Assembly: GCF_036507355.1 (NCBI RefSeq)
Contig: NZ_AP027877.1
Length of the DNA: 64,000 bases
From: Escherichia coli
Lineage (GTDB): Bacteria > Pseudomonadota > Gammaproteobacteria > Enterobacterales > Enterobacteriaceae
Strand: one strand, 5' to 3'
The translations under genes were made by a program, and so were the position numbers. How positions within the stretch are numbered: position 1 is the first letter of the stretch; each line of letters opens with the position of its first letter. Under the pieces are notes generated by a model. That model worked only from the letters and a program-made list of their open reading frames with translations. It searched no databases and was not told where the DNA came from. Positions 37,797 to 58,180 of this stretch are shown here, piece after piece.

Positions 37797-39005
37797 CGTC
37801 CGCGAGATTACCGACGCAATTACGCAGGCAATCAATAAACCGGGGAGTAGCTGATACTCCCCGGTCATTTCACATATCATCAACGTCGACATAATCGGCG
37901 CGTGCGTGGTTGCCGCCAACAGTGTCGCCATCCCGGTCAATCCGAGTAAAAGCGTAATTTCTTCGCCATCAGGGAACCATAATCCCAGGCTACGACCATA
38001 CAACATGCCAATGGCAAGACCGATAAATAGCGTCGGTGTAAAGACACCACCGGGTGCGCCGGAACCGCTACTCGCCAGCACGGCACACAGTTTACAAAGG
38101 AAGATCCCGGCAATGATCATTAACAGTGGCGGGGCGGTTAAAAAGGATTGTACGGTGCTATAGCCGTTGCCCCACACTGCAGGTGTGAACAGGGAAAGCA
38201 GACCCACGATCAACCCGCCTAGTGCCAGTTGCCAGGGCGGCGCAAGTTTGAGACTCACAAATCCACGATGACAGGCGTTCATTAACGTTAACAACAGTGG
38301 TCCGCACAGACCTGCCAGCACACCTGTACTGATAATCAGCGCATAGTCACGAGCCTGAACCGTCACTGAGAGTTGTACGCTGTAGAGTAACGCGTCGCTA
38401 TGATTAATCAGATTGCTAACCAGCAATGCCACGACGGCGGAAATAATCACCGGGCCGAGAGAGGCCAACATCATAGTGCCAAACAGCACTTCGGCTATAA
38501 ATAAACTGCCAGCAAGCGGGGCGCGATAGGCCGCAGCCATTCCCGCTGCGGCCCCACAGGCGATCCATAATTTCCACTCCTGGCGTGGTGTAAAACGTTG
38601 GGCAAAACAGGAGGCGGCAAGGGCAGCTAAAAGAATCATCGCACCTTCGCGACCAATTGCACTGCCGCTGGTTACTACCAGCAGAGAGGCAAGCGATTTA
38701 ACCAGGCTTGCTGCGTAATCAAACTGACCCTCGGTTTGCAACGCTTCCATATAATCGGTCGGCGCATGAGGGCGTTGCTGGGTAAATTTCTGCCAGCCCA
38801 TCAGCAACAAACCCGCCGCCAGTCCGCCGAGCGCCGGAGTTAGCAGCCGTCGCCAGGGGGAAAGGTTTGTCGCTGCATTGACCAGACTGCCGGAGTCATT
38901 ATTGAGGAACAACCACTCCAGTAGCAGCATCGCATGACGAAACCCGGCAACGGCAAAGGCCGCGAGAATACCGACGACTGTTGCGATAAGCAGACGGCGG
39001 AACAT
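37749..39005 (-). CDS. clcB: ClC-family voltage-gated chloride channel ClcB
   Basis: 418 aa from [12 protein letters not shown]; ClC selectivity motifs GSAIGREG and GxFxP. Confidence 0.9.
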
Positions 39006-39199
39006 AGTGCGCAGATCCGGATAGATGTGTAGATGATGCATGAGCAGAAATGGGCAATGAAACACGGGCGACTATTTTGCGGCAAAAGAGGCCAGCCGCA
39101 AAAGCAGTGCGTGCTTTAAGAGATAAAAAAACGTGACACTGTAACGTATTATTGCCGAATTGCGCGTAATCGTCACCATCCGGCAATATTACGGTAATC

Positions 39200-39814
39200 C
39201 TATCGAAACAGCGATTTAACCGCGACAGGAATTAACAGTTGTGATTGCCATTGCGCCAGCGTTAAGCGAGCCAGTTCACCCAGTGCACGGTAGAAAGGGT
39301 GTTCTGCTTTTTCGATAAAAACGTCAAGAAAACGTGTTGACCACGGAAAAAGGTGCCATGCCAGCAATTCTTCGCATTCTGTCTGGCGACCATTCTCCGC
39401 CAACCACGCAGCCATCAACAGCAGTGAACCAAAATGATCTTCCGGTTCGTTTTGCTTCATTTCAAACTGAATGCCTTTCTCGCGCATCCACTGACGAAGT
39501 GCCAATGTTGAATCGCCAAACAGCACAGATTCGCGATCCAGCCAGACCGACCCCCACGGCGGAGACGGCAGTGCCCACGGGCCGACAAACAAACGCTGCC
39601 AGGCCTGGGCGTGAGTCTCTTCACACTGTGTCTGAAAAGCCGTCACCAGCGGCGCTAATGACGCTTCTGGTAGAGGCCACTGAGTTTCCCAGCCGTCACT
39701 GGTGAGTACCGCAACCAGAGGTGCGGCTTCAGCACTCTCTGGAGCGTAATAAAACAGCGCGCCCAACACGCGCGCCGCGACAGAAAAATTATCTTGCTGT
39801 GAAAAATGGGTCAT
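39200..39814 (-). CDS. dmsD: Tat proofreading chaperone DmsD
   Basis: 204 aa from MTHFSQQDNFS; TorD/DmsD family; downstream of ynfH. Confidence 0.9.
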   Translation of the reverse strand: MTHFSQQDNFSVAARVLGALFYYAPESAEAAPLVAVLTSDGWETQWPLPEASLAPLVTAFQTQCEETHAQAWQRLFVGPWALPSPPWGSVWLDRESVLFGDSTLALRQWMREKGIQFEMKQNEPEDHFGSLLLMAAWLAENGRQTECEELLAWHLFPWSTRFLDVFIEKAEHPFYRALGELARLTLAQWQSQLLIPVAVKSLFR

Positions 39815-39856
39815 TCCTAACATCCTGAAATGTGCGGGTTGCCCCGCACCAATTTG

Positions 39857-40711
39857 TTAACCTGCAATAGCCATTCCTACCGTCATGTGCAGGCCATAAA
39901 AGAGCACACGCCCGATCATCTCACCGCCAAGAATGAGGATTAACCCCAGAATAAGTCCGGCAACGTGAGGTTCACGGCGACGTATGAGCGGACAAAGCCA
40001 GCATCCTAGACCTGCGCATAACAATACCACACGCCAGACCTGTAAGGAGGCGTAATCTGGTACCAGTGCGCTGGCTTGTTGCACGGATGAGTGAATAGAC
40101 GACAGAGACAAACCTTGCAGCACAATCACCTCGGCACAAGCGATCAGCGCCAGAACGCTAATGATGGCAAATGGTGTGGTATTAAATGTAACGCGGGCTG
40201 CCCGCAGAATTGCGGCAGCAAGTATTGGACCACTCAACAATACCGTCAGGAAGAAAGCCAGCGTAGTGTAACCGTTATGCCAGGTTGGCACAGTGTCGAT
40301 TTGATACACGCAGGTCATCATCCAGACGAAAATGACGCCGAGCGCCATGCTGACAAGTAACCAGAGTTTCCCCAACGCTTGCGGCATTTTACCGATGACC
40401 GCCACCAGCCACCATAGTCCGCCAACGGCAAAAAATATGGAACCGGCAGCAATCTCGTTACTCAGACCAGAAGCTCCGATTCGATTCAGCGAGTTAAACG
40501 CCCGCAGTGGCGATCCCAGGTGCATGACAGAGGCAATAAACCCGATGCCCATCAACAGCCAGAGGAAAAACATGCCACGAACAATGTGCTGACGGTCTGC
40601 GTCATTTTTGGCGGCGAACCAGCCAATTCCGCTAACAATCAGCGCGCCTACTACGCATTGACCCAATACGGTAAAGATAACCAGTGGCCATTCATGCCAT
40701 CCATTTCCCAT
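39857..40711 (-). CDS. ynfH: DmsC-like membrane anchor subunit of the putative selenate/DMSO-type reductase
   Basis: 284 aa from MGNGWHEW; the ORF track over-extends upstream into ynfG. Confidence 0.88.
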   Translation of the reverse strand: MGNGWHEWPLVIFTVLGQCVVGALIVSGIGWFAAKNDADRQHIVRGMFFLWLLMGIGFIASVMHLGSPLRAFNSLNRIGASGLSNEIAAGSIFFAVGGLWWLVAVIGKMPQALGKLWLLVSMALGVIFVWMMTCVYQIDTVPTWHNGYTTLAFFLTVLLSGPILAAAILRAARVTFNTTPFAIISVLALIACAEVIVLQGLSLSSIHSSVQQASALVPDYASLQVWRVVLLCAGLGCWLCPLIRRREPHVAGLILGLILILGGEMIGRVLFYGLHMTVGMAIAG

Positions 40712-40712
40712 T

Positions 40713-41330
40713 TTACACTTCCTCCGGATTAGCCAGATAACCAGTGGTATCGCCGGTCGGGCGGCTGTTGGCGTTAGGTTTGATAACGATATTGGGTTTT
40801 GTGAAATGCGCGCGCGGCAGTGGCGCGACGGCAGCAAGAGTGCCGTGCTTCTGGCGCAGCTCTTCAATTGGACCGAACTCAAGTGCACGCAGCGGGCAGG
40901 ATTCGACACATATGGGTTGTTTCCCCTCGGCGACGCGCGAATAACAACCATCGCACTTCGTCATGTGCCCTTTTTCAGCATTGTACTGTGGTGCGCCGTA
41001 CGGACAAGCCATGTGGCAGTAGCGGCAGCCGATACAAACATCTTCATCAACCACCACAAAGCCATCTTCACGCTTATGCATTGCGCCGCTGGGGCAGACT
41101 TTTGTACATGCGGGGTCATCGCAATGGTTACAGGAGATGGAGAGATAATAAGAGAACACGTTCTGGTGCCAGACGCCATTATCTTCCTGCCAGTCGCCGC
41201 CAGCATATTCATAAATACGGCGGAAACTGACTTCCGGGCCAAGATCTTTAAAATCTTTGCACGCCAGTTCGCAGGTTTTACAGCCAGTACAGCGGCTGGA
41301 ATCGATAAAAAATCCATATTGTGTGGTCAT
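40713..41330 (-). CDS. ynfG: DmsB-like 4Fe-4S ferredoxin subunit
   Basis: 205-aa ORF with four CxxCxxCxxxCP ferredoxin motifs. Confidence 0.92.
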   Translation of the reverse strand: MTTQYGFFIDSSRCTGCKTCELACKDFKDLGPEVSFRRIYEYAGGDWQEDNGVWHQNVFSYYLSISCNHCDDPACTKVCPSGAMHKREDGFVVVDEDVCIGCRYCHMACPYGAPQYNAEKGHMTKCDGCYSRVAEGKQPICVESCPLRALEFGPIEELRQKHGTLAAVAPLPRAHFTKPNIVIKPNANSRPTGDTTGYLANPEEV

Positions 41331-41340
41331 GGGCTACTCC

Positions 41341-43767
41341 TTAAACCTTTTCGATCTGGACAAGATTGCTGTGCGACGGGTTTCCCTTTGCCAGCGGTGA
41401 AGGGCGGTGAGAGGTCAGAATATTGATACTGCCGCCGTGATCGACCCGGTCACCAAACATATCCGCTTTAAGCCACGCACCTTGCCCGATGGCGGTAACG
41501 CCAGGCAGAATACGCGGAGTCACTTTTGCGGCAATCAGCATTTCTCCATTATTGTTAAATACCCGCACGGTATCGCCATGACGGATACCGCGTGCCTGAG
41601 CATCAATGGGGTTGATCCACACCTCTTGTGGGCAGGCCTGCTGTAACACATCAATATTGCCGTAGCTGGAGTGGGTACGCGCTTTGTAGTGGAAGCCCGT
41701 TAACTGCAGTGGATAGGTTTTCCGCAGGGGATCGTCCCAGCCATCAAAACCTGGCGTATAAGCTGGAAGGGGATGAATAACTTCATCTTTTTTCAATTCC
41801 CAGGTATCTGCAATCTTCGCCAGTCGTTCAGAATAAATTTCGATTTTCCCCGAAGGTGTTTTCAACGGGTTTGCCTGTGGATCTTCACGGAATGCGCGGA
41901 AAGCGACGTAGTGTTCTTCCGGGCATTTTTTCTTAAAGATCCCGGTCGTTTTCATCTCCTCGTAGTCGGGCATCTCAGGGTTACGTTCCTTCGTTTTCGC
42001 ATGGAGATATTTGATCCATTCATGCTGACTGCGACCTTCAGTAAAGGTTTGATAAACGTCCGGTCCTAAGCGTTTGGCGACTTCACTCAGCATCCAGTAG
42101 ATGGGTTTGCGTTCAAATTTTGCTGAGGTTGCGGGTTGGGCGAGGATCACATAGCCCATATTCCCTGCAGATTCATGAGAGATAAGGTCTTCTTGCTCTG
42201 TTGGCATCAGGTCGGGCAACAGGATATCGCAATACTTAGCCGAGGCAGTCATGAAGTGGTCAATGCCAACAATCATCTCGCACTTGCTGTCATCCTGAAG
42301 CACCTCATGGGTGTGATTGATGTCGCCATGTTGATTGATCAATGTGTTACTGGCGTAGCACCATAAAAACTTGATGGGGACATCCAGTTTTTCTTTTCCA
42401 CGAACACCATCACGGGTCGCGGTCATTTCCGTACCATGGTCGATGGCATCTGTCCATGTAAAGACGGAAATCTGCGTTTTAACAGGATTCTCGAGCATCG
42501 GGAACCATTCTACCCCCAGATCCCAGCTACCTTCGCGTACGCCTGAGTTGCCGCCGTTTATGCCGACGTTACCGGTGAGAACGGAAAGCATGGCAATAGC
42601 GCGGGATGTTTGTTCGCCGTTGGAGTGTCGTTGTGGCCCCCAACCCTGACAAATATAAGCAGGTTTTGCTGAACCGATCTCTCGTGCCAACTGGATAATT
42701 TTTTCTGCCGGGATGCTGGTGATTTTTGCTGCCCATTCCGGCGTTTTAGCTATGCCGTCAGGCCCTTCGCCCAGAATATAGGCTTTATAATGCGCGTTAC
42801 GTGGTGCGTTGGCGGGCAGCGTTTTTTCATCGTAACCAACACAATATTTGTCGAGAAATGGTTGATCGACCATGTTTTCAGTAATCAGTACCCAGGCAAT
42901 CGCACAGGCCAGTGCGCCATCGGTGCCAGGGCGAATGGGCAGCCATTCATCTTCACGCCCGGCAGCTGTGTCGTTATAACGTGGATCGATGACGATCATG
43001 CGTGCGTTTGAACGTTCGCGGGCTTGCTCGACGTAGTAAGTGACACCACCGCCGCTCATCCGCGTTTCTGCCGGGTTATTTCCGAACATAACGACCAGTT
43101 TCGTATTGGCGATATCATCCGGGCTGTTGCCATCATTGGCACCGAACATATAACTCATTGCGGCACTGATCTGTGCGGTACTGTAGCTGCCATAGCGACT
43201 GAGAAAACCACCGCAAGAGTTCATCAGACGGTACGGGACGTTTGAGTTGGTGATGTTTCCGCCATCTACGCCTGTTCCATAGAGGACATGTACAGCCTCA
43301 TTGCCGTAATCTTTCAGGATCCGCCGAAGATTATCACTGATGGTATCCAGGGCTTCGTCCCAACTTATCCGTTCAAATTTACCTTCACCGCGCTTGCCGA
43401 CGCGCTTCATGGGATATTTCAACCTATCAGGATGATTCATCCGTCGGCGGATAGAGCGCCCGCGTAAACACGCGCGGACCTGATGATTACCGTAGACGTC
43501 GTCACCTGTCGTATCAGACTCCACCCAGTACACGGTGTCATCTTTCACATGCAAACGTAACAGACAGCGGCTCCCGCAGTTAACGGTGCAGGAACTCCAC
43601 ACCGCTTTCTCTTCTACCGGAGCCTCTGCCGCTCGGACCATTTGGGAAAACGGCAAAGTGAAAGCACTGCTTGCCAGCGCGAGACTGCCAAGTGCGGAGG
43701 TTTTCATCAGACTTCTACGGCTGATTTCAGCCTTCATGAGCGCCTCTGTGGTATGGATTTTCATCAT
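41341..43767 (-). CDS. ynfF: DmsA-like molybdopterin oxidoreductase catalytic subunit, Tat-exported (paralogue 2)
   Basis: About 807-aa ORF with twin-arginine motif SRRSLMK and molybdopterin-oxidoreductase domains. Confidence 0.92.
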   Translation of the reverse strand: MMKIHTTEALMKAEISRRSLMKTSALGSLALASSAFTLPFSQMVRAAEAPVEEKAVWSSCTVNCGSRCLLRLHVKDDTVYWVESDTTGDDVYGNHQVRACLRGRSIRRRMNHPDRLKYPMKRVGKRGEGKFERISWDEALDTISDNLRRILKDYGNEAVHVLYGTGVDGGNITNSNVPYRLMNSCGGFLSRYGSYSTAQISAAMSYMFGANDGNSPDDIANTKLVVMFGNNPAETRMSGGGVTYYVEQARERSNARMIVIDPRYNDTAAGREDEWLPIRPGTDGALACAIAWVLITENMVDQPFLDKYCVGYDEKTLPANAPRNAHYKAYILGEGPDGIAKTPEWAAKITSIPAEKIIQLAREIGSAKPAYICQGWGPQRHSNGEQTSRAIAMLSVLTGNVGINGGNSGVREGSWDLGVEWFPMLENPVKTQISVFTWTDAIDHGTEMTATRDGVRGKEKLDVPIKFLWCYASNTLINQHGDINHTHEVLQDDSKCEMIVGIDHFMTASAKYCDILLPDLMPTEQEDLISHESAGNMGYVILAQPATSAKFERKPIYWMLSEVAKRLGPDVYQTFTEGRSQHEWIKYLHAKTKERNPEMPDYEEMKTTGIFKKKCPEEHYVAFRAFREDPQANPLKTPSGKIEIYSERLAKIADTWELKKDEVIHPLPAYTPGFDGWDDPLRKTYPLQLTGFHYKARTHSSYGNIDVLQQACPQEVWINPIDAQARGIRHGDTVRVFNNNGEMLIAAKVTPRILPGVTAIGQGAWLKADMFGDRVDHGGSINILTSHRPSPLAKGNPSHSNLVQIEKV

Positions 43768-43824
43768 TACTCACTTATTGCTTTTCAAACAAAATGTCAT
43801 GCCAGAATTTATGGTTGTAGTGGG

Positions 43825-46251
43825 TTATATTTTTTCGATCTCGACCAGATTCGTATGCTGCGGGTTTCCCTTCGCCAGTGGTGAAGGGCGCAGAGTGGTT
43901 AGCGTATTCACACAGCCTCCATGGTCGATTTTATCGCCAGACATATTGGCCTCGTGCCAGGCTCCCTGGCCCATAGCGCTAACTCCAGGGAGAATACGTG
44001 GTGTCACTTTGGCTGGTAGCCGAACTTCGCCACGATGGTTATACACCCGCACCATATCGCCGTTGGCAATCCCACGTTTCTGTGCGTCTATAGGGTTGAT
44101 CCACACCTCCTGACGGCAGGCAGCCTTCAGGACATCAATGTTGCCGTAGGTCGAGTGAGTACGGGATTTGTAATGGAAACCAAACAGTTGCAGTGGAAAG
44201 GTACTACGTTCAGGGGAGTCCCAGCCTTCAAAGGTTGAGGCATAAACTGGCAGTGGGCTTATCACTTCATCTTTTTCCAGTTCCCAGGTACGGGCAATTT
44301 CCGCCAGCTTGCTGGAATAAATTTCAATCTTACCGGAAGGTGTTTTAAGTGGATTTGCCTCGGGGTCGTCACGAAATGCTTTGTAGGCGACAAAATGACC
44401 ATTGGGATCTTTACGCTTATAGATACCCATTTTTTTCAGTTCGTCGTAAGACGGTAACGCCGGATCTTTGGCAAGCATTTTGGCGTACAGATGTTGTAAC
44501 CATTGTTCCTGCGTGCGACCTTCAGTGAACTTTTGATAGACGTCAGGTCCAAGACGTTTCGCGACCTCACTCAGGATCCAGTAAATCGGTTTACGTTCGA
44601 ATTTTTCGCTGGTGACTGGCTGGAGGAAAATGAGATATCCCATGTTACCGGCGTAGTCGTTAGGAATAATATCTTCCTGCTCAACGGTCATCAGGTCTGG
44701 CAGCAGAATGTCGGCATATTTTGCCGATGAGGTCATAAAGTTTTCGATGACCACAATCATTTCGCATTTCGATTCGTCCTGCAGAATTTCATGCGTTTTG
44801 TTGATGTCAGAATGCTGATTAACGAGGGTATTTCCCGCGTAATTCCAGATGAACTTAATGGGCACATCCAGTTTATCTTTGCCCCGGACACCGTCGCGGA
44901 TTGCCGTCATTTGTGGGCCATGATCGATAGCATCTGTCCAGCTGAAGCAGGAAATTGACGTTTTGACCGGATTATCCAGCACCGGCAGGCGCTCTATGGT
45001 AATGGTATAGGTCGATTCACGCGCGCCACTATTTCCGCCGCTGATGCCGACATTGCCCGTCAGAATAGGCAACATAGCAATAGCGCGTGCGGTCAGCTCG
45101 CCGTTTGCCTGGCGTTGTGGCCCCCAGCCCTGGCAGATATAAGCGGGTTTTGCTGTGCCAATTTCACGCGCCAGTTTGATGATACGGTCCACCGGGATAC
45201 CGGTAATTTGCGAAGCCCACTGCGGCGTTTTCGCTGTTTTATCGTCACCTTCACCAAGAATATAGGCTTTATAGTGACCATTTTTGGGTGCATCTGCGGG
45301 TAAGGTTTTTTCGTCATAGCCGACGCAGTATTTATCGAGAAAAGGTTGATCAACGAGATTTTCGTTAATCAATACCCAGGCAATACCCGCAACCAGCGCG
45401 GCATCGGTGCCCGGGCGAATAGGAAGCCATTCGTCTTCACGACCGGCAGCCGTATCGGTATATCGCGGATCGATAACAATCATTTTTGCGTTCGATTTTT
45501 CGCGGGCTTTTTCAAGAAGATAAGTGATGCCACCGCCGCTCATGCGGGTTTCTGCCGGGTTGTTACCAAACATCACGACCAGCTTGCTGTTTTCAATATC
45601 CGTGGTGCTGTTGCCATCATTACTGCCGTAGGTGTAGGGCATGGCACAGGAAATTTGCGCAGTGCTGTAGGAGCCATACTGATTGAGTGAACCGCCGTAG
45701 CAGTTCATCAGGCGTTTGACCGCCGAGGCTGATGGCGAAGAGCGGGTCATATTGCCGCCAACAATCCCCGAAGAGTACTGAATATATACAGCCTCATTGC
45801 CATATTGTTCGACGGTTTTTTTCAGGCTACTGGCGATAGTATCCAGGGCTTCATCCCAGCTAATCCGTTCGAATTTGCCTTCACCGCGTTTACCCACGCG
45901 TTTCATTGGGTAATTCAAGCGATCGGGATGATTAATACGCCGGCGGATGGAGCGACCGCGCAAACAGGCGCGTACTTGATGATTGCCATACTCATCGCTG
46001 CCGGTGTTGTCAGTTTCCACCCAGGCCACTTCATTATCTTTAACATGTAGACGAAGTGCACAGCGGCTACCACAGTTGACGGAACAGGCACCCCAGACCA
46101 CTTTTTCGCTGGCCTGTTGTACTGCTGCCGCTGCACTGCGCAGGGTGAACGGCAAAGAAAAACCGCCTGCAGCCAGCGCCAGAGAACCTATCGCGGTAGA
46201 TTTAACGAGTGTTCTGCGGCTGATGCCCACCATTCGTTCATTTTTGGACAT
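43825..46251 (-). CDS. ynfE: DmsA-like molybdopterin oxidoreductase catalytic subunit, Tat-exported (paralogue 1)
   Basis: 808-aa ORF with twin-arginine motif SRRTLVK; tandem paralogue of ynfF. Confidence 0.92.
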   Translation of the reverse strand: MSKNERMVGISRRTLVKSTAIGSLALAAGGFSLPFTLRSAAAAVQQASEKVVWGACSVNCGSRCALRLHVKDNEVAWVETDNTGSDEYGNHQVRACLRGRSIRRRINHPDRLNYPMKRVGKRGEGKFERISWDEALDTIASSLKKTVEQYGNEAVYIQYSSGIVGGNMTRSSPSASAVKRLMNCYGGSLNQYGSYSTAQISCAMPYTYGSNDGNSTTDIENSKLVVMFGNNPAETRMSGGGITYLLEKAREKSNAKMIVIDPRYTDTAAGREDEWLPIRPGTDAALVAGIAWVLINENLVDQPFLDKYCVGYDEKTLPADAPKNGHYKAYILGEGDDKTAKTPQWASQITGIPVDRIIKLAREIGTAKPAYICQGWGPQRQANGELTARAIAMLPILTGNVGISGGNSGARESTYTITIERLPVLDNPVKTSISCFSWTDAIDHGPQMTAIRDGVRGKDKLDVPIKFIWNYAGNTLVNQHSDINKTHEILQDESKCEMIVVIENFMTSSAKYADILLPDLMTVEQEDIIPNDYAGNMGYLIFLQPVTSEKFERKPIYWILSEVAKRLGPDVYQKFTEGRTQEQWLQHLYAKMLAKDPALPSYDELKKMGIYKRKDPNGHFVAYKAFRDDPEANPLKTPSGKIEIYSSKLAEIARTWELEKDEVISPLPVYASTFEGWDSPERSTFPLQLFGFHYKSRTHSTYGNIDVLKAACRQEVWINPIDAQKRGIANGDMVRVYNHRGEVRLPAKVTPRILPGVSAMGQGAWHEANMSGDKIDHGGCVNTLTTLRPSPLAKGNPQHTNLVEIEKI

Positions 46252-46449
46252 AACTCACTCCCTGTTCTTTATCGTTATATAAAAGTTTATATATTGAATA
46301 TTTAGCGCGCTAACAATAGAGGGAGTCTACCCATTTTGGGTTAATAATTATTAATCCATATCAATAGAAGGGTATGAGTAATAAGGTGGGATTATGTTGT
46401 ATGTCCAAATCGCCGGATGTGTCGTATCCGGCGTGTAGTCGATAATGTA

Positions 46450-46755
46450 TTACTGCGGTTCGGCAGGCGCGCCATCCTGGGTAGACTGCGCGGGAGCAGA
46501 GACGTTACCGCTGGTGGTGCGGGTGTAGAGAATTTTATGCGTATCATTAGCGCAATGCCCGACGACCTGGGAATCAGGCTGATCAACCTGGTCATTGGGT
46601 ACAATACTTAACGTGAAGCTGCTTTCGGGTACGCCATTATTGATAATGCGCTGTGATATATCGCTTTGTATGCGCTCACAGGATCCCGGCGCGGCGAGTA
46701 CCGCGGGTGAGGCGAGGGCGAGCAGAAGCGCGGCACAGCAGGTTGAGAGTTTCAT
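46450..46755 (-). CDS. ynfD: DUF1161 small secreted protein YnfD
   Basis: 101 aa from MKLSTCCAALLLALASPAVLAA (signal peptide). Confidence 0.8.
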   Translation of the reverse strand: MKLSTCCAALLLALASPAVLAAPGSCERIQSDISQRIINNGVPESSFTLSIVPNDQVDQPDSQVVGHCANDTHKILYTRTTSGNVSAPAQSTQDGAPAEPQ

Positions 46756-51424: not shown

Positions 51425-51470
51425 TACTGAGGTGTACTGGCAATAGCGGACACTACCATTTGTTCTTTTT

Positions 51471-52289
51471 TTAAGCAGCCATCTGATGATATTTTTCCCT
51501 GAAGGCTGCCGGGGAGATATTCCCCAGACGAGAGTGACGACGCTGACGATTGTAGAAAATCTCAATGTATTCCCGTATTACTGAGATGGCTTCATCCCGG
51601 TTATTAAAACGATAGTGGCTCAGGCTCTCATTTTTCAGCGTTCCCCAGAAGCTTTCCATCGGAGCGTTGTCGTAACAGTTACCTTTACGCGACATTGATG
51701 TTTTCAGACCAAACTGCTCCTGTATGACCCGGTAATCGTATGCGCAGTACTGTGAACCTCGATCAGAGTGGTGGATTAGCCCGGCAGGTGGGCGCTGTCT
51801 CCTGAGCGCCATAAACAGGGCTTTACCTGTCAGCTCTTTTGTCATGCGCTCTCCCATGGCGTAGCCGACAATTTCGCACGTATAAACATCTTTGATGCCA
51901 GCGAGGTACAACCATCCCTCCTGTGTGGCAACATACGTCAGGTCCGCCACCCAGACCTGATTTGGTGCTGTAGGAGCGAACGTCTGGTTCAGCAGATTTG
52001 GCGCAACTGGCAGATTGTGGTTCGAGTTCGTAGTCGCTCTGAACTTGCGTTTCTGCTTACAGCGTAGCCTTAGCTCCTTACGAAGACGTGCCAGTCGGTC
52101 ACGACCAACGATGATGCCATTCTCTGCCAGCTCCGTCTGGAGCCGCCGGGTTCCATATGTTTCGCGAGTGCGGATATGTGCCACCTTAATCTCCAGTTTT
52201 AGCCGCTCATCACTTTGTTTTCTGTCTGAGGGTTCATGCTGTACCCAGTTGTAATAACCGCTCCTGGATACACCAAATACCTGACACAT
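51471..52289 (-). CDS. IS600 transposase OrfB (DDE integrase domain)
   Basis: 272-aa ORF recognised as IS600 OrfB; DDE-type catalytic core. Confidence 0.88.
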   Translation of the reverse strand: MCQVFGVSRSGYYNWVQHEPSDRKQSDERLKLEIKVAHIRTRETYGTRRLQTELAENGIIVGRDRLARLRKELRLRCKQKRKFRATTNSNHNLPVAPNLLNQTFAPTAPNQVWVADLTYVATQEGWLYLAGIKDVYTCEIVGYAMGERMTKELTGKALFMALRRQRPPAGLIHHSDRGSQYCAYDYRVIQEQFGLKTSMSRKGNCYDNAPMESFWGTLKNESLSHYRFNNRDEAISVIREYIEIFYNRQRRHSRLGNISPAAFREKYHQMAA

Positions 52290-52324
52290 CGCTTCAATGG
52301 GAAATTGTTGTCGCCATTGTTCGA

Positions 52325-52627
52325 TTAACGCGTATTTTTCAGCGACTCCTGTGCAAAATACGCTGTTGCTTTTTTTAATATATCTCGCTCAAGGCGAGCT
52401 TCATTTAACGCCTTACGCAGTTGCAGAATTTCAGATTCCAGTTCAGCCACCGTGCGGGAACCAGGAGTACCGAGCCCTTTTCTGGCGGCGGTAACCCATT
52501 GTCCTAAAGTGCCTTCAGGAAGAGATAATCGGGAAGCGCCTTCACTGATCGAAAGTTGATTTTCAAGAACCGTTCTGACAGCTTCGGCTTTGAACTCTTT
52601 AGAGTAACGTTGGGTTTTTCTGCTCAT
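52325..52627 (-). CDS. IS600 transposase OrfA (HTH)
   Basis: 100-aa ORF MSRKTQRYSKEFKAEAVRTV... recognised as IS600 OrfA; ends at the slippery heptamer. Confidence 0.88.
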   Translation of the reverse strand: MSRKTQRYSKEFKAEAVRTVLENQLSISEGASRLSLPEGTLGQWVTAARKGLGTPGSRTVAELESEILQLRKALNEARLERDILKKATAYFAQESLKNTR

Positions 52628-54386
52628 TATTAGCTCCTTCTGATGCCATTCTATTTCAGGAAGGAGTGTCCGTTAAACTCAGGCTACCTCATACCAATAA
52701 CGGCGAGTAAGTAGTACGCATCTTACCTCTTTTTTAGAGATAACCATTATGTCAATAGAAAAACACGAAAGAAGCACTAAGGATTTGGTGAAAGCAGCAG
52801 TATCGGGATGGCTGGGCACTGCGCTTGAATTTATGGATTTCAAGAGTCATGCGTGTTAACTATTTGATAAATATTAAATTAATTTTTCATTGCTTCGTTA
52901 TGGGGCATGGTTGGGGCAAACTCGCTTAACTGTGTATTTAACAAAGCTACCTGTGCATTATTGTTTTCAGACATCCATTTTCCGTATAGACCCTCCGCAT
53001 CTTGAGAGTGTTGGTGATAACGCCTGGATGGGAAAGAAATATGGACGGCTGAATAAAGATGCCTGGCGTGATGATTCGCGACAGAGATTTAAAGAAGCCT
53101 TTCGGGTGTTGAGGCCGCACGGCGTTCTGATTTTTTAATGGAATGAAACGCAAATACCGGTAAGCCAGATTCTGGCACTGACAGACAGAAAACCTGTTAT
53201 CTGTCAACGAACAGGGAAAAAACGATAAAACCCACTGGATTATTTTTATGAAAGAGGCATCCAGTGAGTAGATTCGTAAGGCTACAGATACGTATATCTG
53301 AATAATTAAATTCAGTTCTGTAAATAAAATTTAATCCTTAACCGGATGGATTTCTGCACCCTCAGAACATCAGGAGGCCGCCCGAAAGGGCGGTAGTGAA
53401 ATGCGAAAGTTCAAAATTATTATTGAAACGGGAATAGCTGGTGGAGATTTTGAGGATGTATTCGAAGTGGACGATGACGCAACACCTGAGGAAATTCATG
53501 ACGGAGCATAAGAAATTTTCTTTAACTACTGCAATTACTCATACCACGAAATAAAAGACGATGAGGAAGAACAAAGTGGCTGATTTTTGTTCAGCTAAAT
53601 ATAACATCAGTTTTGAAGAGCGGGATGAACTATTAATGGACTATGGTGAGTTACGCGGTGGAAGTGCTGCTGATGTCGAATCCTAGCGTGATGACTATGA
53701 AGCGGGAAAAACTCCGGTCGAAGCATATTGTGATGAGTGGGGCGATGAATGAGCGAGATTAATTATCAGGAAGGGCATGAAACGGCGGGGCAAGCAAAAC
53801 CAGTGGCATGGCGATATCGCTACGTGAAAAAAGGCGTTACGGACTTTCAGGGGAAGTAGTGGTCTGGTGACTGGAAATATGTACCGAAAAAAGAGGATTG
53901 TAACGACAGGCCGAACTATCAAATTCAGGCCTTATTCACTGCCTCACCAGTCCCAGTTACATCAGAAGAACTGGTTAAAGCTGTGCACTTTTATGAACAA
54001 CTAAAACGCGAAAATCCACCAACATCCGGCAACTAGATTAATGGATTAACTATGTCGGTTAAACGACCAGCCAACTGAAAAAGCGGAAACCTGATTACAG
54101 GTTGCCAGATAAGGCAATGAGCTACCTGGCGCGGAACGGACTGATAAGTATGGGGAATGTTTTACGATGAACCTTTAGACTAAAGAGTTTGTAACGCTAT
54201 GTAAGTGATTTTTTCTGGTTTAGATATTTATATGTCCGGCCAAATTGAGGTGTGTTTAAATGTAATTGCACATTGATTGTAGGAGGAATAATGAAAAACG
54301 CATTGCAGTTTTTGTTTGTTGCGTTCTGGTTGTTCGCATCATGTATGCCCATCATCTTCACAGCAAGGTGAATCGCCACGGATAAT

Positions 54387-55199
54387 CTAGACACTTCCGA
54401 GCCGTTGATAATACTGGTTTTCATATTCTGTCGGTGACATCTGATCGCTGGAACCATGCCGACGCTTACTGTTATAAAACATTTCGATGTAATCAAAAAT
54501 ATCGCTGCGGGCTTCTTCCCGCGTTCCGTAGATCTTTTTCTTTATCCGTTCGCGTTTCAACAACTGGAAAAAGCTTTCTGCAACCGCATTATCATGGCAG
54601 TTACCGCGACGGCTCATGCTGCCATCCAGGCCGTGTGATTTCAGGAACGACTGCCACTCATGGCTTGTGTACTGACTGCCCTGATCCGAATGAACCAGCA
54701 CCTGTTTTTGGGGATTACGGCGCCATACAGCCATCAGCAGTGCGTTCAGGACAATGTCCTTTGTCATCCGGGATTGCATGGACCAGCCGATAATTTTGCG
54801 TGAGAACAGATCAACAACCACGGCAAGATACAGCCAGCCTTCGTGGGTCCTGATGTAGGTTATGTCCGTTACCCAACGCTTATCCGGAGCATCCGGATTG
54901 AACTGTCGCTGGAGCCTGTTGGGCGACACGATACTGGCCTCGCCTTTACGTGCCCGCGGGCTCCGGTATCCGACCTGAGCCTTTATCCCGACACGTTTCA
55001 TCAGTCGCCAGACTCTGTTCACTCCGCACTGTTGCCCGCTGTCCCGCAGATCCAGATGGATTTTGCGATAACCATAGACGCATCCCGATTCCAGCCAGAA
55101 CTGTTTAATCTGCCCTGTCAGCCTCAGGTCTGCCTGATGGCGTTGTGAATGCGGCTGCTGAAGCCAGGCGTAAAAACCACTGGGATGAACATCCAGCAC
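54387..55199 (-). CDS. IS3-family transposase OrfB
   Basis: 270-aa ORF with DDE integrase core (…HSDQGSQYTS…, …GNCHDNAVAESFF…). Confidence 0.85.
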   Translation of the reverse strand: MLDVHPSGFYAWLQQPHSQRHQADLRLTGQIKQFWLESGCVYGYRKIHLDLRDSGQQCGVNRVWRLMKRVGIKAQVGYRSPRARKGEASIVSPNRLQRQFNPDAPDKRWVTDITYIRTHEGWLYLAVVVDLFSRKIIGWSMQSRMTKDIVLNALLMAVWRRNPQKQVLVHSDQGSQYTSHEWQSFLKSHGLDGSMSRRGNCHDNAVAESFFQLLKRERIKKKIYGTREEARSDIFDYIEMFYNSKRRHGSSDQMSPTEYENQYYQRLGSV

Positions 55200-55255
55200 C
55201 CGACAGAGCAGGCGAACAGGCCAGCAACAGGTGTTGTCACGGATAAAGGCGTACC

Positions 55256-55540
55256 TCAGTCGGACAGCTTTGCGAAGTACGCCGCGGCTTTTTTTAATAT
55301 GTCCCGTTCGTCGGTAACCCGCTTCAGCTCTTTCTGGAGACGGCGGATCTCGGCCTGAGCATCTGACTGTTCTTTATTAGCGGAAGAATCCGGACCGTAC
55401 TTCTTTATCCAGGCGTAAAGGCTGTGGGTGGTGATATCGAGACGTGTTGCAACGCTGGCAACAGAATAACCGCGATCAACAACCTGTTTGACTGCTTCAA
55501 TTTTAAACTCTTCGGGATAACGCTTACCGCTCATGGGCAC
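55256..55540 (-). CDS. IS3-family transposase OrfA
   Basis: 94-aa HTH ORF ending at the slippery heptamer. Confidence 0.85.
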   Translation of the reverse strand: MPMSGKRYPEEFKIEAVKQVVDRGYSVASVATRLDITTHSLYAWIKKYGPDSSANKEQSDAQAEIRRLQKELKRVTDERDILKKAAAYFAKLSD

Positions 55541-55760
55541 CTCTCTTTAAGCCATCTTAAATGACTCTGAGGTGTCTGTTAAACCCGTGGCGATTCATAA
55601 TTGATCATGGGTTGTCAGTTAAACTCGTGGCGATTTAAATAGACTAATTGGGAGTGCGTCCATTACTTATATCTTGTAATGTTAACTATCAGAAATTCTT
55701 GTAATGTTAACTATCAGAAATGATACAAAGATAATATGTCTTTAAAGAAAAGGCTGATGG

Positions 55761-55785
55761 CGAAAAGTGGCCCGATGAGGGCCAC
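55761..55785 (-). terminator. intrinsic terminator of flxA
   Basis: On the minus strand: hairpin GTGGCCC-TCATC-GGGCCAC followed by TTTTC. Confidence 0.7.
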
Positions 55786-55799
55786 AATACGGCTGTCAC

Positions 55800-56132
55800 T
55801 TAGACGTAAATATCAATGGTGCCAGCGGTATTTGTATCGTCTTTTTTCTCTTCTTTTTTATCAGGCTGAACTGTCGCGTCTTCATTCTTTTTCTCTGCCT
55901 GCTGCCTTAACAACTGCTCCAGTTGAGCCCAGAGGCTTTCAATTTGCTTCTGTACCAATGCAGCCATTTCTTTTTTCTGCTGTGTCGTCATCCCCTCTTC
56001 CGATGAGATTTTCCCAAGCTTTTCAGTCAGCACCTGAATTTGTCTTGTGATTTTGGCTATTTCTGATGTTCCTTCCGGGGCGGAGTTGTTTGAAATAACG
56101 GTTGAGGTATTTCCCTGAATTGTGACAGACAT
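55800..56132 (-). CDS. flxA: FliA-regulated prophage protein FlxA
   Basis: 110-aa ORF recognised as FlxA; preceded by a sigma28-type promoter and a GGAG ribosome-binding site. Confidence 0.8.
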   Translation of the reverse strand: MSVTIQGNTSTVISNNSAPEGTSEIAKITRQIQVLTEKLGKISSEEGMTTQQKKEMAALVQKQIESLWAQLEQLLRQQAEKKNEDATVQPDKKEEKKDDTNTAGTIDIYV

Positions 56133-56155
56133 AGATTTCTCCTTTTAAAAAAGCA

Positions 56156-56182
56156 CTATCGGCATGCACAAAAAAATCTTTA
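56156..56182 (-). promoter_or_regulatory. sigma28 (FliA) promoter of flxA
   Basis: Minus strand reads TAAAGATT-N11-GCCGATAG, matching consensus TAAAGTTT-N11-GCCGATAA, about 25 nt upstream of the flxA start. Confidence 0.75.
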
Positions 56183-56334
56183 ATCGTATTTCTTGTGTCA
56201 TTAATTGTTTGATGTTCAGATTGTTTTCCTCGCGGGCTGGCGCGCCTCAGAAAGTAAAGCTTGTTGACAGGGGTAAACGTTCGGCAATAATTTTCTGCCG
56301 CATGCGGGTGTTGCATAAAACGTGTTACGTTCCT

Positions 56335-56640
56335 TTATCGACAGGTCAGGTCACCGCTCACCCGCCGACGAGAAAGCAACACTGACATGCTAAAGCAAAA
56401 AATAGATGAATAAGTTGAGTTGTGCATATGTAGCCTGACCGTCACAAAGTATATGGTGTCTGTACCAGTAAGATGATGGCCGGACTCTTTAAAAACGAGC
56501 TGACCTGCACAATACAGGATGGACTTAGCAATGGCTGCTCCTGGCACAAAGCGGACAGTGATCACCGTTCTTACGACTACTTTCTGACTTCCTTCGTGAC
56601 TTGCCCTAAGCATGTTGTAGTGCGATACTTGTAATGACAT
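56335..56640 (-). CDS. ydfV: prophage protein of unknown function (YdfV-like)
   Basis: 101-aa ORF between flxA and relB; identity rests on size and position only. Confidence 0.4.
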   Translation of the reverse strand: MSLQVSHYNMLRASHEGSQKVVVRTVITVRFVPGAAIAKSILYCAGQLVFKESGHHLTGTDTIYFVTVRLHMHNSTYSSIFCFSMSVLLSRRRVSGDLTCR

Positions 56641-56653
56641 TTGTAATTACAAG
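56628..56653. promoter_or_regulatory. relBE operator (inverted TTGTAAT repeats)
   Basis: cttgtaatgacatttgtaattacaag about 12 bp upstream of the relB ATG. Confidence 0.7.
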
Positions 56654-56664
56654 AGGTGTAAGAC

Positions 56665-56904
56665 ATGGGTAGCATTAACCTGCGTATTGACGATGAACTT
56701 AAAGCGCGTTCTTACGCCGCGCTTGAAAAAATGGGTGTAACTCCTTCTGAAGCGCTTCGTCTCATGCTCGAGTATATCGCTGACAATGAACGCTTGCCGT
56801 TCAAACAGACACTCCTGAGTGATGAAGATGCTGAACTTGTGGAGATAGTGAAAGAACGGCTTCGTAATCCTAAGCCAGTACGTGTGACGCTGGATGAACT
56901 CTGA
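56665..56904 (+). CDS. relB: RelB antitoxin
   Basis: 79-aa ORF recognised as RelB; stop overlaps the relE start. Confidence 0.92.
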   Translation: MGSINLRIDDELKARSYAALEKMGVTPSEALRLMLEYIADNERLPFKQTLLSDEDAELVEIVKERLRNPKPVRVTLDEL

Positions 56905-57191
56905 TGGCGTATTTTCTGGATTTTGACGAGCGGGCACTAAAGGAATGGCGAAAGCTGGGCTCGACGGTACGTGAACAGTTGAAAAAGAAGCTGGTTGAAG
57001 TACTTGAGTCACCCCGGATTGAAGCAAACAAGCTCCGTGGTATGCCTGATTGTTACAAGATTAAGCTCCGGTCTTCAGGCTATCGCCTTGTATACCAGGT
57101 TATAGACGAGAAAGTTGTCGTTTTCGTGATTTCTGTTGGGAAAAGAGAACGCTCGGAAGTATATAGCGAGGCGGTCAAACGCATTCTCTGA
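56904..57191 (+). CDS. relE: RelE mRNA interferase toxin
   Basis: 95-aa ORF recognised as RelE. Confidence 0.92.
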   Translation: MAYFLDFDERALKEWRKLGSTVREQLKKKLVEVLESPRIEANKLRGMPDCYKIKLRSSGYRLVYQVIDEKVVVFVISVGKRERSEVYSEAVKRIL

Positions 57192-57250
57192 ACCAAAGCT
57201 TCGCACCGAAGGTGACACTTCTGCTTTGCGTTGACAGGAGAAGCAGGCTA

Positions 57251-57406
57251 TGAAGCAGCAAAAGGCGATGTTAATCGCCCTGATCGTCATCTGTTTAACC
57301 GTCATAGTGACGGCACTGGTAACGAGGAAAGACCTCTGCGAGGTACGAATCCGAACCGGCCAGACGGAGGTCGCTGTCTTCACAGCTTACGAACCTGAGG
57401 AGTAAG
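57251..57406 (+). CDS. hokD: Hok-family type I toxin (HokD/RelF)
   Basis: 51-aa ORF MKQQKAMLIALIVICLTVIVTALVTRKDLCEVRIRTGQTEVAVFTAYEPEE translated by hand from the sequence (below the ORF-track size cutoff). Confidence 0.85.
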
Positions 57407-57471
57407 AGACCCGGCGGGGGAGAAATCCCTCGCCACCTCTGATGTGGCAGGCATCCTCAACGCACCCGCAC

Positions 57472-57500
57472 TTAACCCGCTTCGGCGGGTTTTTGTTTTT
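57472..57500 (+). terminator. intrinsic terminator after hokD
   Basis: aacccgc-ttcg-gcgggtt followed by TTTTGTTTTT. Confidence 0.7.
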
Positions 57501-57621
57501 ATTTTCAACGCGTTTGAAGTTCTGGACGGTGCCGGAATAGAATCAAAAATACTTAAGTAGCGCGCAGGGATAAGAGGGATGGTCCCTTAAAGGGGAGAGC
57601 TAATTATCCGGAAGGATTCTG

Positions 57622-57873: not shown

Positions 57874-58180
57874 ACTCATCTACAATCTTGCGCGGGGCTG
57901 AACTCCCGCTGAGTAACACCGTGCCACCGGAGAAAACCGATGGCACGCAACGCAAAATATTACAATTCTGATAATTCGCCCGTTCTTGCCTGCACGCACG
58001 GGCGGTATTCTCACGCATTCAAGTCTGAATGGTTCCAGCACCCTCCATGCACTGCAGAACAGGCCGAATGGCTGATTCATTCTTACCGCAGGCGCGGGTT
58101 CGAGGTTAAGAAAGCTCTCAGTCTCGACTATCGGCACTGGATAATCTCTGTCAGGCTGCCTTATTCCGAACGCCCACCAC

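What the first reader, a model, noticed from the sequence alone, without database searches (positions are those of the whole stretch)
41341..46251. Tandem paralogous Tat-dependent molybdoenzyme genes ynfE and ynfF
Two 808-aa DmsA-like ORFs lie head-to-tail, each with its own twin-arginine signal, followed by a single set of ynfG, ynfH and dmsD. This is a known duplication; the divergence between the copies is visible and both copies are intact here.
Basis: established knowledge. Interest (0 to 1): 0.25.

Follow-up and report, generated by a model that had tools for sequence, protein, structure and literature searches.

The report
Known ynfE–ynfF tandem selenate-reductase genes
This stretch holds the well-known E. 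coli ynfEFGH-dmsD operon, in which two old, diverged, intact copies of a molybdenum enzyme gene sit one behind the other and share one set of partner genes; it is ordinary and already described.

Summary
On the minus strand lie two uninterrupted DmsA-like ORFs. They are ynfE (43825-46251, 808 aa) and ynfF (41341-43767 from the first ATG, 808 aa; RefSeq and K-12 start at the second ATG, 43764, giving 807 aa). One ynfG, one ynfH and one dmsD follow.

- **Similarity:** the two proteins are 71% identical and 85% similar over 801 residues, and the genes are 70% identical in DNA.
- **Age:** third codon positions are only 47% identical and the longest shared run is 17 nt. The duplication is therefore old, with no recent gene conversion.
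- **Conserved features:** each copy keeps a twin-arginine motif, the four-cysteine [4Fe-4S] motif, the serine aligned to the Mo-ligand Ser147 of Rhodobacter DMSO reductase, and all three Pfam molybdopterin-oxidoreductase domains.
- **Assignment:** NCBIfam models place each copy in its own orthologue group.
- **Distribution:** the region is 99.2% identical to annotated E. coli ynfEFGH-dmsD, and 5060 of 5426 complete E. coli genomes hold most of it.
- **Literature:** the operon is described as FNR-activated. It encodes a Tat-exported selenate/tellurate reductase that is paralogous to DmsABC.

Side observations: about 10% of complete E. coli genomes lack part of ynfF, and some strains carry single ynfE/ynfF hybrid genes. 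YnfF-type proteins share a shortened loop without an arginine, close to the active site.

Verdict: already known, low interest.

The parts
43825..46251 (-). ynfE, 808 aa: Tat-exported molybdopterin (Mo-bisPGD) catalytic subunit, selenate/tellurate reductase
   Evidence: Uninterrupted ORF. Pfam Molybdop_Fe4S4 + Molybdopterin + Molydop_binding. NCBIfam NF041885 selenate_YnfE scores 1796, above the 1675 cutoff. Annotated as ynfE in a 99.2%-identical E. coli record. Nine aa differences from K-12 YnfE.
41341..43764 (-). ynfF, 807 aa from the annotated ATG (808 aa if the adjacent upstream ATG at 43767 is used): paralogous catalytic subunit
   Evidence: Uninterrupted ORF. Same three Pfam domains as ynfE. 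NCBIfam NF041884 selenate_YnfF scores 1775, above the 1650 cutoff. One aa difference from K-12 YnfF. 100% identical to cluster P0015, which has 17057 members.
43765..43824 (-). ynfE-ynfF spacer (60 nt) holding the ynfF ribosome-binding region AAGTGAGTAATGATG
   Evidence: Sequence read. One base differs from K-12. No promoter-like or terminator-like site was found in the spacer.
46201..46221 (-). YnfE twin-arginine motif SRRTLVK (aa 11-17)
43702..43722 (-). YnfF twin-arginine motif SRRSLMK (aa 15-21 in 807-aa numbering)
45964..46086 (-). YnfE four-cysteine motif C56-x3-C60-x3-C64-x31-C96 (the FS0 [4Fe-4S] site)
   Evidence: It lies inside the Pfam Molybdop_Fe4S4 match at aa 49-108.
43468..43590 (-). 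YnfF four-cysteine motif C59-x3-C63-x3-C67-x31-C99
45664..45666 (-). YnfE Ser196 codon in GSYSTAQ, aligned to the Mo-ligand Ser147 of Rhodobacter sphaeroides DMSO reductase
   Evidence: phmmer alignment to 1eu1_A (residue counted by hand from the printed alignment). Motif located. The ligand role of Ser147 comes from my own knowledge of the DorA structure.
43180..43182 (-). YnfF Ser195 codon in the identical GSYSTAQ motif
40713..41330 (-). ynfG, 205 aa: four-cluster iron-sulfur electron-transfer subunit
   Evidence: TIGR02951 DMSO_dmsB scores 264, above the 214 cutoff. Pfam Fer4_11. 93.7% identical to K-12 DmsB. Starts 10 nt after the ynfF stop.
39857..40711 (-). ynfH, 284 aa: DmsC-type membrane anchor and quinol-oxidising subunit
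   Evidence: Pfam DmsC, E = 6e-128. 57% identical to K-12 DmsC. Annotation.
39200..39814 (-). dmsD, 204 aa: chaperone that binds Tat signal peptides
   Evidence: NF008632 DmsD equivalog scores 347, above the 162 cutoff. Pfam Nitrate_red_del.
46351..46364 (-). FNR-box-like site TTGATatggATTAA (1 mismatch to TTGAT-N4-ATCAA), centred 106.5 nt upstream of the ynfE ATG
   Evidence: one of only 6 one-mismatch matches in 64 kb. Identical to K-12 at this site. The operon is listed as directly FNR-activated with a site at -40.5 (PMC3688515). That this box is the functional site is an inference.
46324..46329 (-). Possible -10 hexamer TAGACT, placed as expected for a class II FNR promoter (inferred only)
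   Evidence: Sequence. Its position follows from an FNR centre at -40.5. The generic sigma-70 scan found no full promoter upstream of ynfE, as expected if the -35 element is replaced by the activator site.

Best explanation
The region is the E. coli ynfEFGH-dmsD operon, transcribed on the minus strand.

ynfE and ynfF are products of an ancient tandem duplication of a DmsA-type catalytic subunit gene. Both are kept intact by purifying selection.

The likely mechanism has these steps:
1. Under anaerobiosis FNR activates a single promoter upstream of ynfE.
2. Each pre-protein is held by DmsD through its twin-arginine signal peptide while the Mo-bis(pyranopterin guanine dinucleotide) cofactor and one [4Fe-4S] cluster are inserted.
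3. Each pairs with the single four-cluster protein YnfG and is exported folded by the Tat system.
4. The complex docks on the single membrane anchor YnfH, which oxidises menaquinol.
5. Electrons pass through YnfG to the Mo site, which reduces selenate (and tellurate).

The two catalytic subunits are therefore alternative heads for one shared electron-transfer module.

Shown here: gene identity, integrity, motifs, divergence and orthology. Taken from the literature: FNR control, DmsD dependence, Tat export, and selenate/tellurate reduction with YnfE as the main contributor. Inferred: that both heads use the same YnfGH module.
For: - **Integrity and coordinates:**
- **Similarity:** 71% aa identity, E = 0.
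- **Age of the duplication:** 69.9% nt identity, with codon positions 1/2/3 at 79/84/47% and a longest identical run of 17 nt. Synonymous sites are saturated, so the duplication is old and there is no recent conversion.
- **Purifying selection within the species:** ynfF differs from K-12 at 21 nt but only 1 aa, and ynfE at 52 nt but only 9 aa.
- **Domains and orthology models:**
- **Cofactor motifs and Tat motifs in both copies:**
- **Species context:** 99.2% identity to annotated ynfEFGH-dmsD, with 5060 of 5426 genomes holding at least 80% of the operon.
- **Tree:** a neighbour-joining tree places YnfE-type and YnfF-type proteins as separate sister clades with DmsA outside.
- **Literature:** selenate reductase, YnfE as the main contributor and DmsD binding of the YnfE/YnfF/DmsA signals (PMC5203670). 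An E. coli ΔynfEF mutant cannot reduce selenate, and menaquinone is the donor (PMC12724226). FNR-activated with a site at -40.5 (PMC3688515). ynfEF named as tellurate/selenate reductase genes, in the title of Fujita et al. 2021 as cited in PMC12096835.
Against: Nothing contradicts the identification.

The weak points concern function only:
- No direct enzyme assay of YnfE or YnfF is reported in the papers I read. [quoted passage not shown]
- YnfF contributes little to selenate reduction in Salmonella.
- A mid-ynfF segment is missing from about 12% of complete E. coli genomes, against about 2% for a mid-ynfE segment. 'Two equivalent isoenzymes' may therefore be too simple.
- No solved structure of YnfE, YnfF or E. 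coli DmsA was found by sequence search.
Confidence: 0.95

Rival explanations
1. YnfF is not a redundant isoenzyme. It is a functionally distinct enzyme (subfunctionalised, with another physiological substrate) that happens to share YnfGH and DmsD with YnfE.
For: - YnfF-type proteins form their own clade. It reaches beyond Enterobacteriaceae: Providencia, Actinobacillus rossii and Aeromonas proteins are 76-78% identical to E. coli YnfF, more than E. coli YnfE is (71%).
- The clade shares a signature next to the active site. The loop GGNITN/KS..PY/F-RLMNSCGG is 4-5 residues shorter and lacks the arginine kept in YnfE and DmsA (GGN[MI]TRSSP.A..V.RLMNCYGG).
- This is the least conserved stretch between the two copies, at 48% aa identity in codons 151-200. 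phmmer aligns it to the DorA segment that holds Tyr114 and Trp116.
- YnfF contributes little to selenate reduction in Salmonella.
- ynfF differed from the other reductase genes in expression: before HOCl treatment all of them except ynfF were expressed at low levels, and ynfF alone was not elevated in a ΔdmsA strain (PMC12096835).
Against: - NCBI names both proteins selenate/tellurate reductase subunits.
- E. coli genetics has so far used the ΔynfEF double mutant, so a YnfF-specific role is untested rather than shown.
- ynfF is disrupted in about 10% of complete E. coli genomes, which argues against an essential separate role.
- The roles of the loop residues come from my memory of DmsA and DorA mutagenesis, not from a test here.
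Confidence: 0.35
2. The two copies are a recent duplication, or are kept alike by ongoing gene conversion.
For: They are adjacent, of equal length, on the same strand and collinear over their whole length.
Against: - Third codon positions are 47% identical, and only 49% of conserved residues use the same codon. This is hardly more than for either copy against dmsA, which lies far away on the chromosome (41-42%).
- No 50-codon window exceeds 79% nt identity, and the longest identical run is 17 nt.
- Salmonella has the same pair at the same 71% identity.
- Orthologues of each copy exist in other genera.
Confidence: 0.02
3. One of the two copies in this window is a decaying or hybrid gene rather than a true ynfE or ynfF.
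For: Such variants do exist in the species:
- ynfF pseudogenes with two internal deletions.
- In-register E/F hybrids of 808 aa (P0023, P0038, P0048).
- Out-of-register fusions (P0012 and others).
Against: - Both window ORFs are full length with no internal stop.
- Each exceeds only its own NCBIfam cutoff.
- YnfF is 100% identical to the main 17057-member cluster.
- The two deleted segments of the pseudogene type are present in the window.
Confidence: 0.01

Closest known systems
E. coli K-12 ynfEFGH-dmsD operon (b1587-b1591; called ynfEFGHI by Lubitz & Weiner 2003)
   Same: Same genes in the same order and with the same lengths. YnfE, YnfF, YnfG, YnfH and DmsD differ by 9, 1, 1, 5 and 1 residues. 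The upstream FNR-like box is identical. The flanking genes are the same: ynfD, ynfC, speG, ynfB and ynfA on one side, clcB on the other.
   Different: Only allelic differences of 0.5-2.3% nt per gene. No complete E. coli genome in the collection exceeds 99.3% identity over ynfE-ynfF, so this exact strain is not in that collection.
E. coli DmsABC (dimethyl sulfoxide reductase)
   Same: Same three-subunit architecture. It has the same Tat signal type, the same four-cysteine motif and the same serine in the G(S/D)YS(S/T)AQI motif. DmsA is 67% identical to each of YnfE and YnfF. DmsB is 93.7% identical to YnfG and DmsC is 57% identical to YnfH. It uses the same chaperone, DmsD.
   Different: It has one catalytic gene rather than two, sits at a different chromosomal locus, and has no chaperone gene in its operon. 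The window proteins fall below the DmsA-specific NCBIfam cutoff (1343 and 1322 against 1600).
Salmonella enterica ynfEFGH-dmsD selenate reductase
   Same: The same tandem pair, with the same 71% identity between YnfE and YnfF. It is Tat- and DmsD-dependent (PMC5203670).
   Different: It is the orthologous operon of another genus. The likely Salmonella YnfF (P0055) is 79-80% identical to the window YnfF.
Enterobacter cloacae srnABCD selenate reductase
   Same: SrnA is 86% identical to E. coli YnfE. It functions in an E. coli ΔynfEF mutant, presumably with YnfG, YnfH and DmsD (PMC12724226).
   Different: As described in that paper, the operon has a single catalytic gene and no ynfF-type second copy.

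Membership tests
YnfE orthologue group (NCBIfam NF041885 selenate_YnfE) | Whole-protein score above the curated cutoff of 1675 bits | tested here: met
   The upstream ORF scores 1796.4. The downstream ORF scores 1483.3 and fails, as expected.
YnfF orthologue group (NCBIfam NF041884 selenate_YnfF) | Whole-protein score above the curated cutoff of 1650 bits | tested here: met
   The downstream ORF scores 1774.8. The upstream ORF scores 1476.3 and fails, as expected.
DmsA/YnfE subfamily of the DMSO reductase family (TIGR02166) | Score above 777.7 bits, with the three-domain architecture Fe4S4 + Molybdopterin + Molydop_binding | tested here: met
   Scores of 1395.7 and 1287.3. All three Pfam domains are present in both proteins.
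DmsA/YnfE subfamily of the DMSO reductase family | N-terminal twin-arginine (Tat) signal peptide | tested here: met
   SRRTLVK in YnfE and SRRSLMK in YnfF, each followed by a hydrophobic stretch. Export itself was not tested.
DmsA/YnfE subfamily of the DMSO reductase family | Four-cysteine motif for the FS0 [4Fe-4S] cluster | tested here: met
   C-x3-C-x3-C-x31-C in both copies, aligned with DmsA.
DmsA/YnfE subfamily of the DMSO reductase family | Serine ligand to molybdenum | tested here: met
   YnfE Ser196 and YnfF Ser195, both in GSYSTAQ. They align to Ser147 of 1eu1 and to the serine of GDYSSAQI in DmsA. Metal ligation itself cannot be tested here.
DmsABC-type three-subunit respiratory reductase operon | Adjacent four-cluster Fe-S subunit, DmsC-type anchor and DmsD chaperone genes on the same strand | tested here: met
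   ynfG (TIGR02951, 264 against a 214 cutoff), ynfH (Pfam DmsC, E = 6e-128) and dmsD (NF008632, 347 against a 162 cutoff). The gaps between genes are 10, 1 and 42 nt.
Selenate/tellurate reductase (functional class) | Catalyses selenate or tellurate reduction in vivo | not testable with these tools
   Rests on the genetics in PMC5203670, PMC12724226 and the Fujita et al. 2021 title cited in PMC12096835.
FNR regulon | FNR box near -41 of the promoter, with anaerobic induction | tested here: inconclusive
   A one-mismatch FNR box lies at 46351-46364. It fits the published -40.5 site, but no transcription start is known for this window.
DmsA proper (NCBIfam NF011566) | Score above 1600 bits | tested here: not met
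   Scores of 1343.2 and 1322.1. The two genes are paralogues of dmsA, not dmsA itself.

The most novel reading that the evidence does not exclude
The tandem pair is not simple redundancy. YnfF belongs to a separate, widely distributed clade that also includes Providencia, Actinobacillus and Aeromonas proteins. Its active-site-proximal loop is 4-5 residues shorter and lacks the arginine kept in YnfE and DmsA. YnfF may therefore reduce a different, still unidentified substrate while borrowing YnfGH and DmsD. The tandem layout also makes the locus unstable. In natural E. coli populations it yields ynfF loss, in-register E/F hybrid enzymes and out-of-register fusions.
Probability: 0.3. Interest if true: 0.35.

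Novelty: already known. Interest (0 to 1): 0.1.

Why it matters
As it stands, this finding only confirms a textbook-level annotation, so it matters little. The operon is relevant to anaerobic respiration, to selenium and tellurium cycling, and to Tat/DmsD chaperone biology.

The one open question it touches is why enterobacteria keep two catalytic heads for one electron-transfer module. The YnfF-specific loop signature, the frequent loss of ynfF and the natural E/F hybrids seen in passing give concrete handles on that question. None of them is particular to this window.

Tried and rejected
- **Gene conversion or recent duplication between ynfE and ynfF.** Rejected: third-position identity is 47%, no 50-codon window exceeds 79% nt identity, and the longest identical run is 17 nt.
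- **Gene conversion as the cause of the 93.7% identity between YnfG and DmsB.** Rejected: third positions are only 51% identical, so purifying selection explains it.
- **The nine YnfE differences from K-12 as imports from ynfF.** Not supported. At the one position I compared (354), the window residue does not match YnfF, and both alleles occur in other E. coli proteins.
- **Solved structures.** A sequence search found none for YnfE, YnfF or E. coli DmsA. The best matches are TorA and Rhodobacter DMSO reductase at E about 1e-75. I did not run structure prediction, because the tool returns no coordinates and loop-to-Mo distances could not have been measured.
- **Generic promoter and terminator scan.** It found no sigma-70 promoter upstream of ynfE or in the ynfE-ynfF spacer. 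This fits an activator-dependent promoter but is not informative by itself.
- **Primary papers.** Xu, Busby & Browning 2009 (PMC2681810), on the ynfE promoter, is not held in the library. I did not try to open Lubitz & Weiner 2003 or Guymer et al. 2009. Statements about all three are second-hand, from papers that cite them.
- **Large scans.** I did not scan genome contigs or metagenome contigs, because the cost was not justified for a known locus.
Full report
**Observation.** The ORF table shows two 808-aa ORFs on the minus strand at exactly the reported coordinates, 43825..46251 and 41341..43767. Both translate without internal stops. They are head-to-tail, 57 nt apart, or 60 nt from the annotated ynfF start. 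BLASTP between them gives 568/801 identities (71%), 85% positives and 9 gap positions, with E = 0. Downstream on the same strand lie a 205-aa gene (40713..41330), a 284-aa gene (39857..40711) and a 204-aa gene (39200..39814), separated by gaps of 10, 1 and 42 nt.

**Identity.** Megablast of window 39000-46600 against 5426 complete E. coli genomes finds the region in 5424. In 5060 of them one place covers at least 80% of it. The best identity is 99.2%, to O157:H7-type strains, and the features under the match are annotated ynfE, ynfF, ynfG, ynfH and dmsD. K-12 has the same layout, b1587-b1591.

Both large proteins have the Pfam domains Molybdop_Fe4S4, Molybdopterin and Molydop_binding. NCBIfam's discriminating models assign them unambiguously:
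- The upstream ORF scores 1796 on YnfE (cutoff 1675) and 1476 on YnfF (cutoff 1650).
- The downstream ORF scores 1775 on YnfF and 1483 on YnfE.
- Both fail the DmsA-specific model (1343 and 1322 against 1600).

YnfG matches TIGR02951, YnfH matches Pfam DmsC (E = 6e-128) and DmsD matches its equivalog model.

RefSeq and K-12 use the second of two adjacent ATGs (43764, 807 aa). That codon lies 5 nt from the GAG of AAGTGAGT, against 2 nt for the first ATG.

**Anatomy of the two copies.** Each has a twin-arginine motif: SRRTLVK in YnfE and SRRSLMK in YnfF. Each has the four-cysteine motif C-x3-C-x3-C-x31-C. Each has the motif GSYSTAQ. The second serine of that motif aligns to Ser147 of Rhodobacter sphaeroides DMSO reductase, 1eu1. 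That Ser147 is the Mo ligand comes from my own knowledge. [quoted passage not shown]

**Age of the duplication.** In a codon alignment the genes are 69.9% identical. Codon positions 1, 2 and 3 are 79%, 84% and 47% identical. Only 49% of conserved residues use the same codon. The longest identical run is 17 nt, and no 50-codon window exceeds 79% nt identity. The same measures for ynfE or ynfF against the distant dmsA are only slightly lower, with position 3 at 41-42%. Synonymous sites are thus saturated, the duplication is ancient, and there is no sign of recent gene conversion.

YnfE and YnfF are 71% identical to each other and 67% identical to DmsA. A neighbour-joining tree with orthologues from other genera gives separate YnfE and YnfF clades that are sister to each other, with DmsA outside. 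The tree is midpoint-rooted and has no outgroup, so the root is an assumption.

Both copies are under purifying selection within the species. Against K-12, ynfF has 21 nt changes but only 1 aa change, and ynfE has 52 nt changes but only 9 aa changes.

**Mechanism.** The literature describes ynfEFGH-dmsD as a Tat- and DmsD-dependent membrane-bound selenate reductase.
- YnfE is the main catalytic subunit and YnfF contributes little in Salmonella. DmsD binds the signal peptides of DmsA, YnfE and YnfF (PMC5203670; PMC4464133 and PMC10609526).
- An E. coli ΔynfEF mutant cannot reduce selenate, and menaquinone is the electron donor (PMC12724226).
- ynfEF are named as tellurate/selenate reductase genes in the title of Fujita et al. 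2021, as cited in PMC12096835.
- The operon is listed as directly FNR-activated with a site at -40.5 (PMC3688515; PMC10845959).

In the window, a one-mismatch FNR box, TTGATatggATTAA, lies at 46351-46364, 106.5 nt upstream of the ATG. It is one of six such matches in 64 kb and is identical to K-12. A TAGACT hexamer at 46324-46329 sits where a -10 element would be. This placement is an inference. No promoter-like or terminator-like site lies in the ynfE-ynfF spacer, which fits co-transcription.

The most likely working model is that two alternative catalytic heads share one YnfG-YnfH electron-transfer module and one chaperone.

**Comparison with the known.** This is the described operon itself, so it is not new. 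DmsABC is the closest paralogous system. Salmonella has the orthologous pair at the same 71% identity. Enterobacter cloacae srnABCD is described with a single YnfE-type catalytic gene.

**Seen in passing.**

1. *ynfF is often lost.* In JJ1887-type genomes ynfF is an annotated frameshifted pseudogene lacking window 41423-41696 and 42471-43050. The 580-nt ynfF segment is present in 4761 of 5426 genomes. A comparable 601-nt ynfE segment is present in 5308. ynfF is therefore the more dispensable copy.

2. *The pair sometimes collapses into one gene.* A protein search with YnfF found E. coli proteins that are single-crossover YnfE(N-terminal)/YnfF(C-terminal) hybrids of exactly 808 aa, with three different crossover points (P0023, P0038, P0048). 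It also found out-of-register in-frame fusions: P0012 of 946 aa on at least 95 contigs, P0003 of 1146 aa on 33 contigs, and P0001 of 1206 aa. Contigs carrying P0023 and P0012 show one gene between ynfD and ynfG, so the pair has collapsed there. By my reading of the sequences printed, the P0023 crossover lies in a shared 5-nt TGGGC and the P0012 junction has essentially no homology.

3. *YnfF-type proteins share a loop signature.* The loop is 4-5 residues shorter and has lost the arginine kept in YnfE and DmsA. It lies in the least conserved stretch between the paralogues, which aligns to the DorA Tyr114/Trp116 segment.

4. *YnfG is 93.7% identical to DmsB despite saturated synonymous sites*.

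5. *Mobile elements.* The right part of the window holds two IS3-family elements and a degraded Qin-like prophage.

**Verdict.** The finding is real, correctly interpreted and already known. The interest score is low. The only opening for something new is whether YnfF is a functionally distinct enzyme, and that question is not specific to this window.

Noticed in passing
window 41341-43764 (ynfF); deleted segments correspond to window 41423-41696 and 42471-43050; locus L005 2501-4070: In E. coli JJ1887 and similar genomes ynfF is a frameshifted pseudogene with two internal deletions (274 and 580 nt), while ynfE stays intact. The 580-nt ynfF segment is present in 4761 of 5426 complete E. coli genomes, against 5308 for a comparable ynfE segment. 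About 10% of genomes have therefore lost ynfF specifically.
   Followed up: partly
L006 4001-6427 (P0023); proteins P0038 and P0048; compare window 41341-46251: Some natural E. coli strains have the tandem pair collapsed into one 808-aa in-register hybrid, with a YnfE N-terminal part and a YnfF C-terminal part. There are three different crossover points, near aa 345, 466 and 522. In L006 the single hybrid gene lies between ynfD and ynfG. By my reading of the sequences printed, the P0023 crossover lies in a shared 5-nt TGGGC.
   Followed up: partly
L007 4001-6841 and L008 12-2852 (P0012, 946 aa); proteins P0003 (1146 aa) and P0001 (1206 aa): Out-of-register but in-frame ynfE-ynfF fusion genes produced by internal deletions. 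In P0012, ynfE nt 1-978 are joined to ynfF nt 565-2427 with essentially no homology at the junction. P0012 is on at least 95 contigs and P0003 on 33, so at least two of these alleles are carried by many isolates.
   Followed up: partly
window about 43224-43281 (YnfF aa 162-180) and about 45697-45777 (YnfE aa 159-185): YnfF-type proteins from E. coli, Salmonella, [Enterobacter] lignolyticus, Providencia, Actinobacillus rossii and Aeromonas share a loop, GGNIT(N/K)S..P(Y/F)RLMNSCGG. It is 4-5 residues shorter and lacks the arginine of the GGN(M/I)TRSSP.A..V.RLMNCYGG loop in YnfE-type proteins and of the corresponding GGTMTRSW… loop in DmsA. It lies about 20 residues before the Mo-ligand serine, in the least conserved stretch between the paralogues.
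   Followed up: partly
proteins P0033 (812 aa) and P0069 (818 aa, 64 contigs), Salmonella enterica: Salmonella also has mosaic proteins. P0033 looks like a YnfE/YnfF hybrid. P0069 looks like a three-part DmsA/YnfE/YnfF mosaic by 40-residue window identity. I did not check their genomic context, so assembly artefacts are not excluded.
   Followed up: no
window 40713-41330 (ynfG) against K-12 dmsB (L002 3415-4032): YnfG and DmsB are 93.7% identical in protein, far more than the A subunits (67%) or C subunits (57%). Yet third codon positions are only 51% identical. The similarity therefore reflects strong purifying selection on the Fe-S subunit, not gene conversion.
   Followed up: yes
window 39200-46251, gene by gene against K-12: Divergence from K-12 is uneven along the operon: ynfE 2.14%, ynfF 0.87%, ynfG 0.49%, ynfH 2.34% and dmsD 0.49% nt. 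This pattern suggests a mosaic of recombined segments within the species.
   Followed up: no
window 51428-52690 and 54369-55597: Two IS3-family insertion elements. Their transposase ORFs are 51474-52289 and 54390-55199 on the minus strand, with rve and HTH_21 domains. The second element has 38-nt terminal inverted repeats. The first is absent at this site in the closest complete genome.
   Followed up: partly
window about 52691-64000: A degraded Qin-like cryptic prophage next to rspAB. By comparison with L004 (flxA, relBE, hokD, ydfU, cspB/F, essD, rrrQ) it lacks the block of about 7.5 kb from the integrase to the methyltransferase. Gene names are transferred from L004 and were not checked gene by gene in the window.
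   Followed up: partly
whole window: No complete E. coli genome in the collection matches the three parts tested at more than 99.1-99.6% identity. Together with the IS elements, this suggests a strain or close relative (possibly Shigella) that is not in the collection. That is speculation.
   Followed up: no
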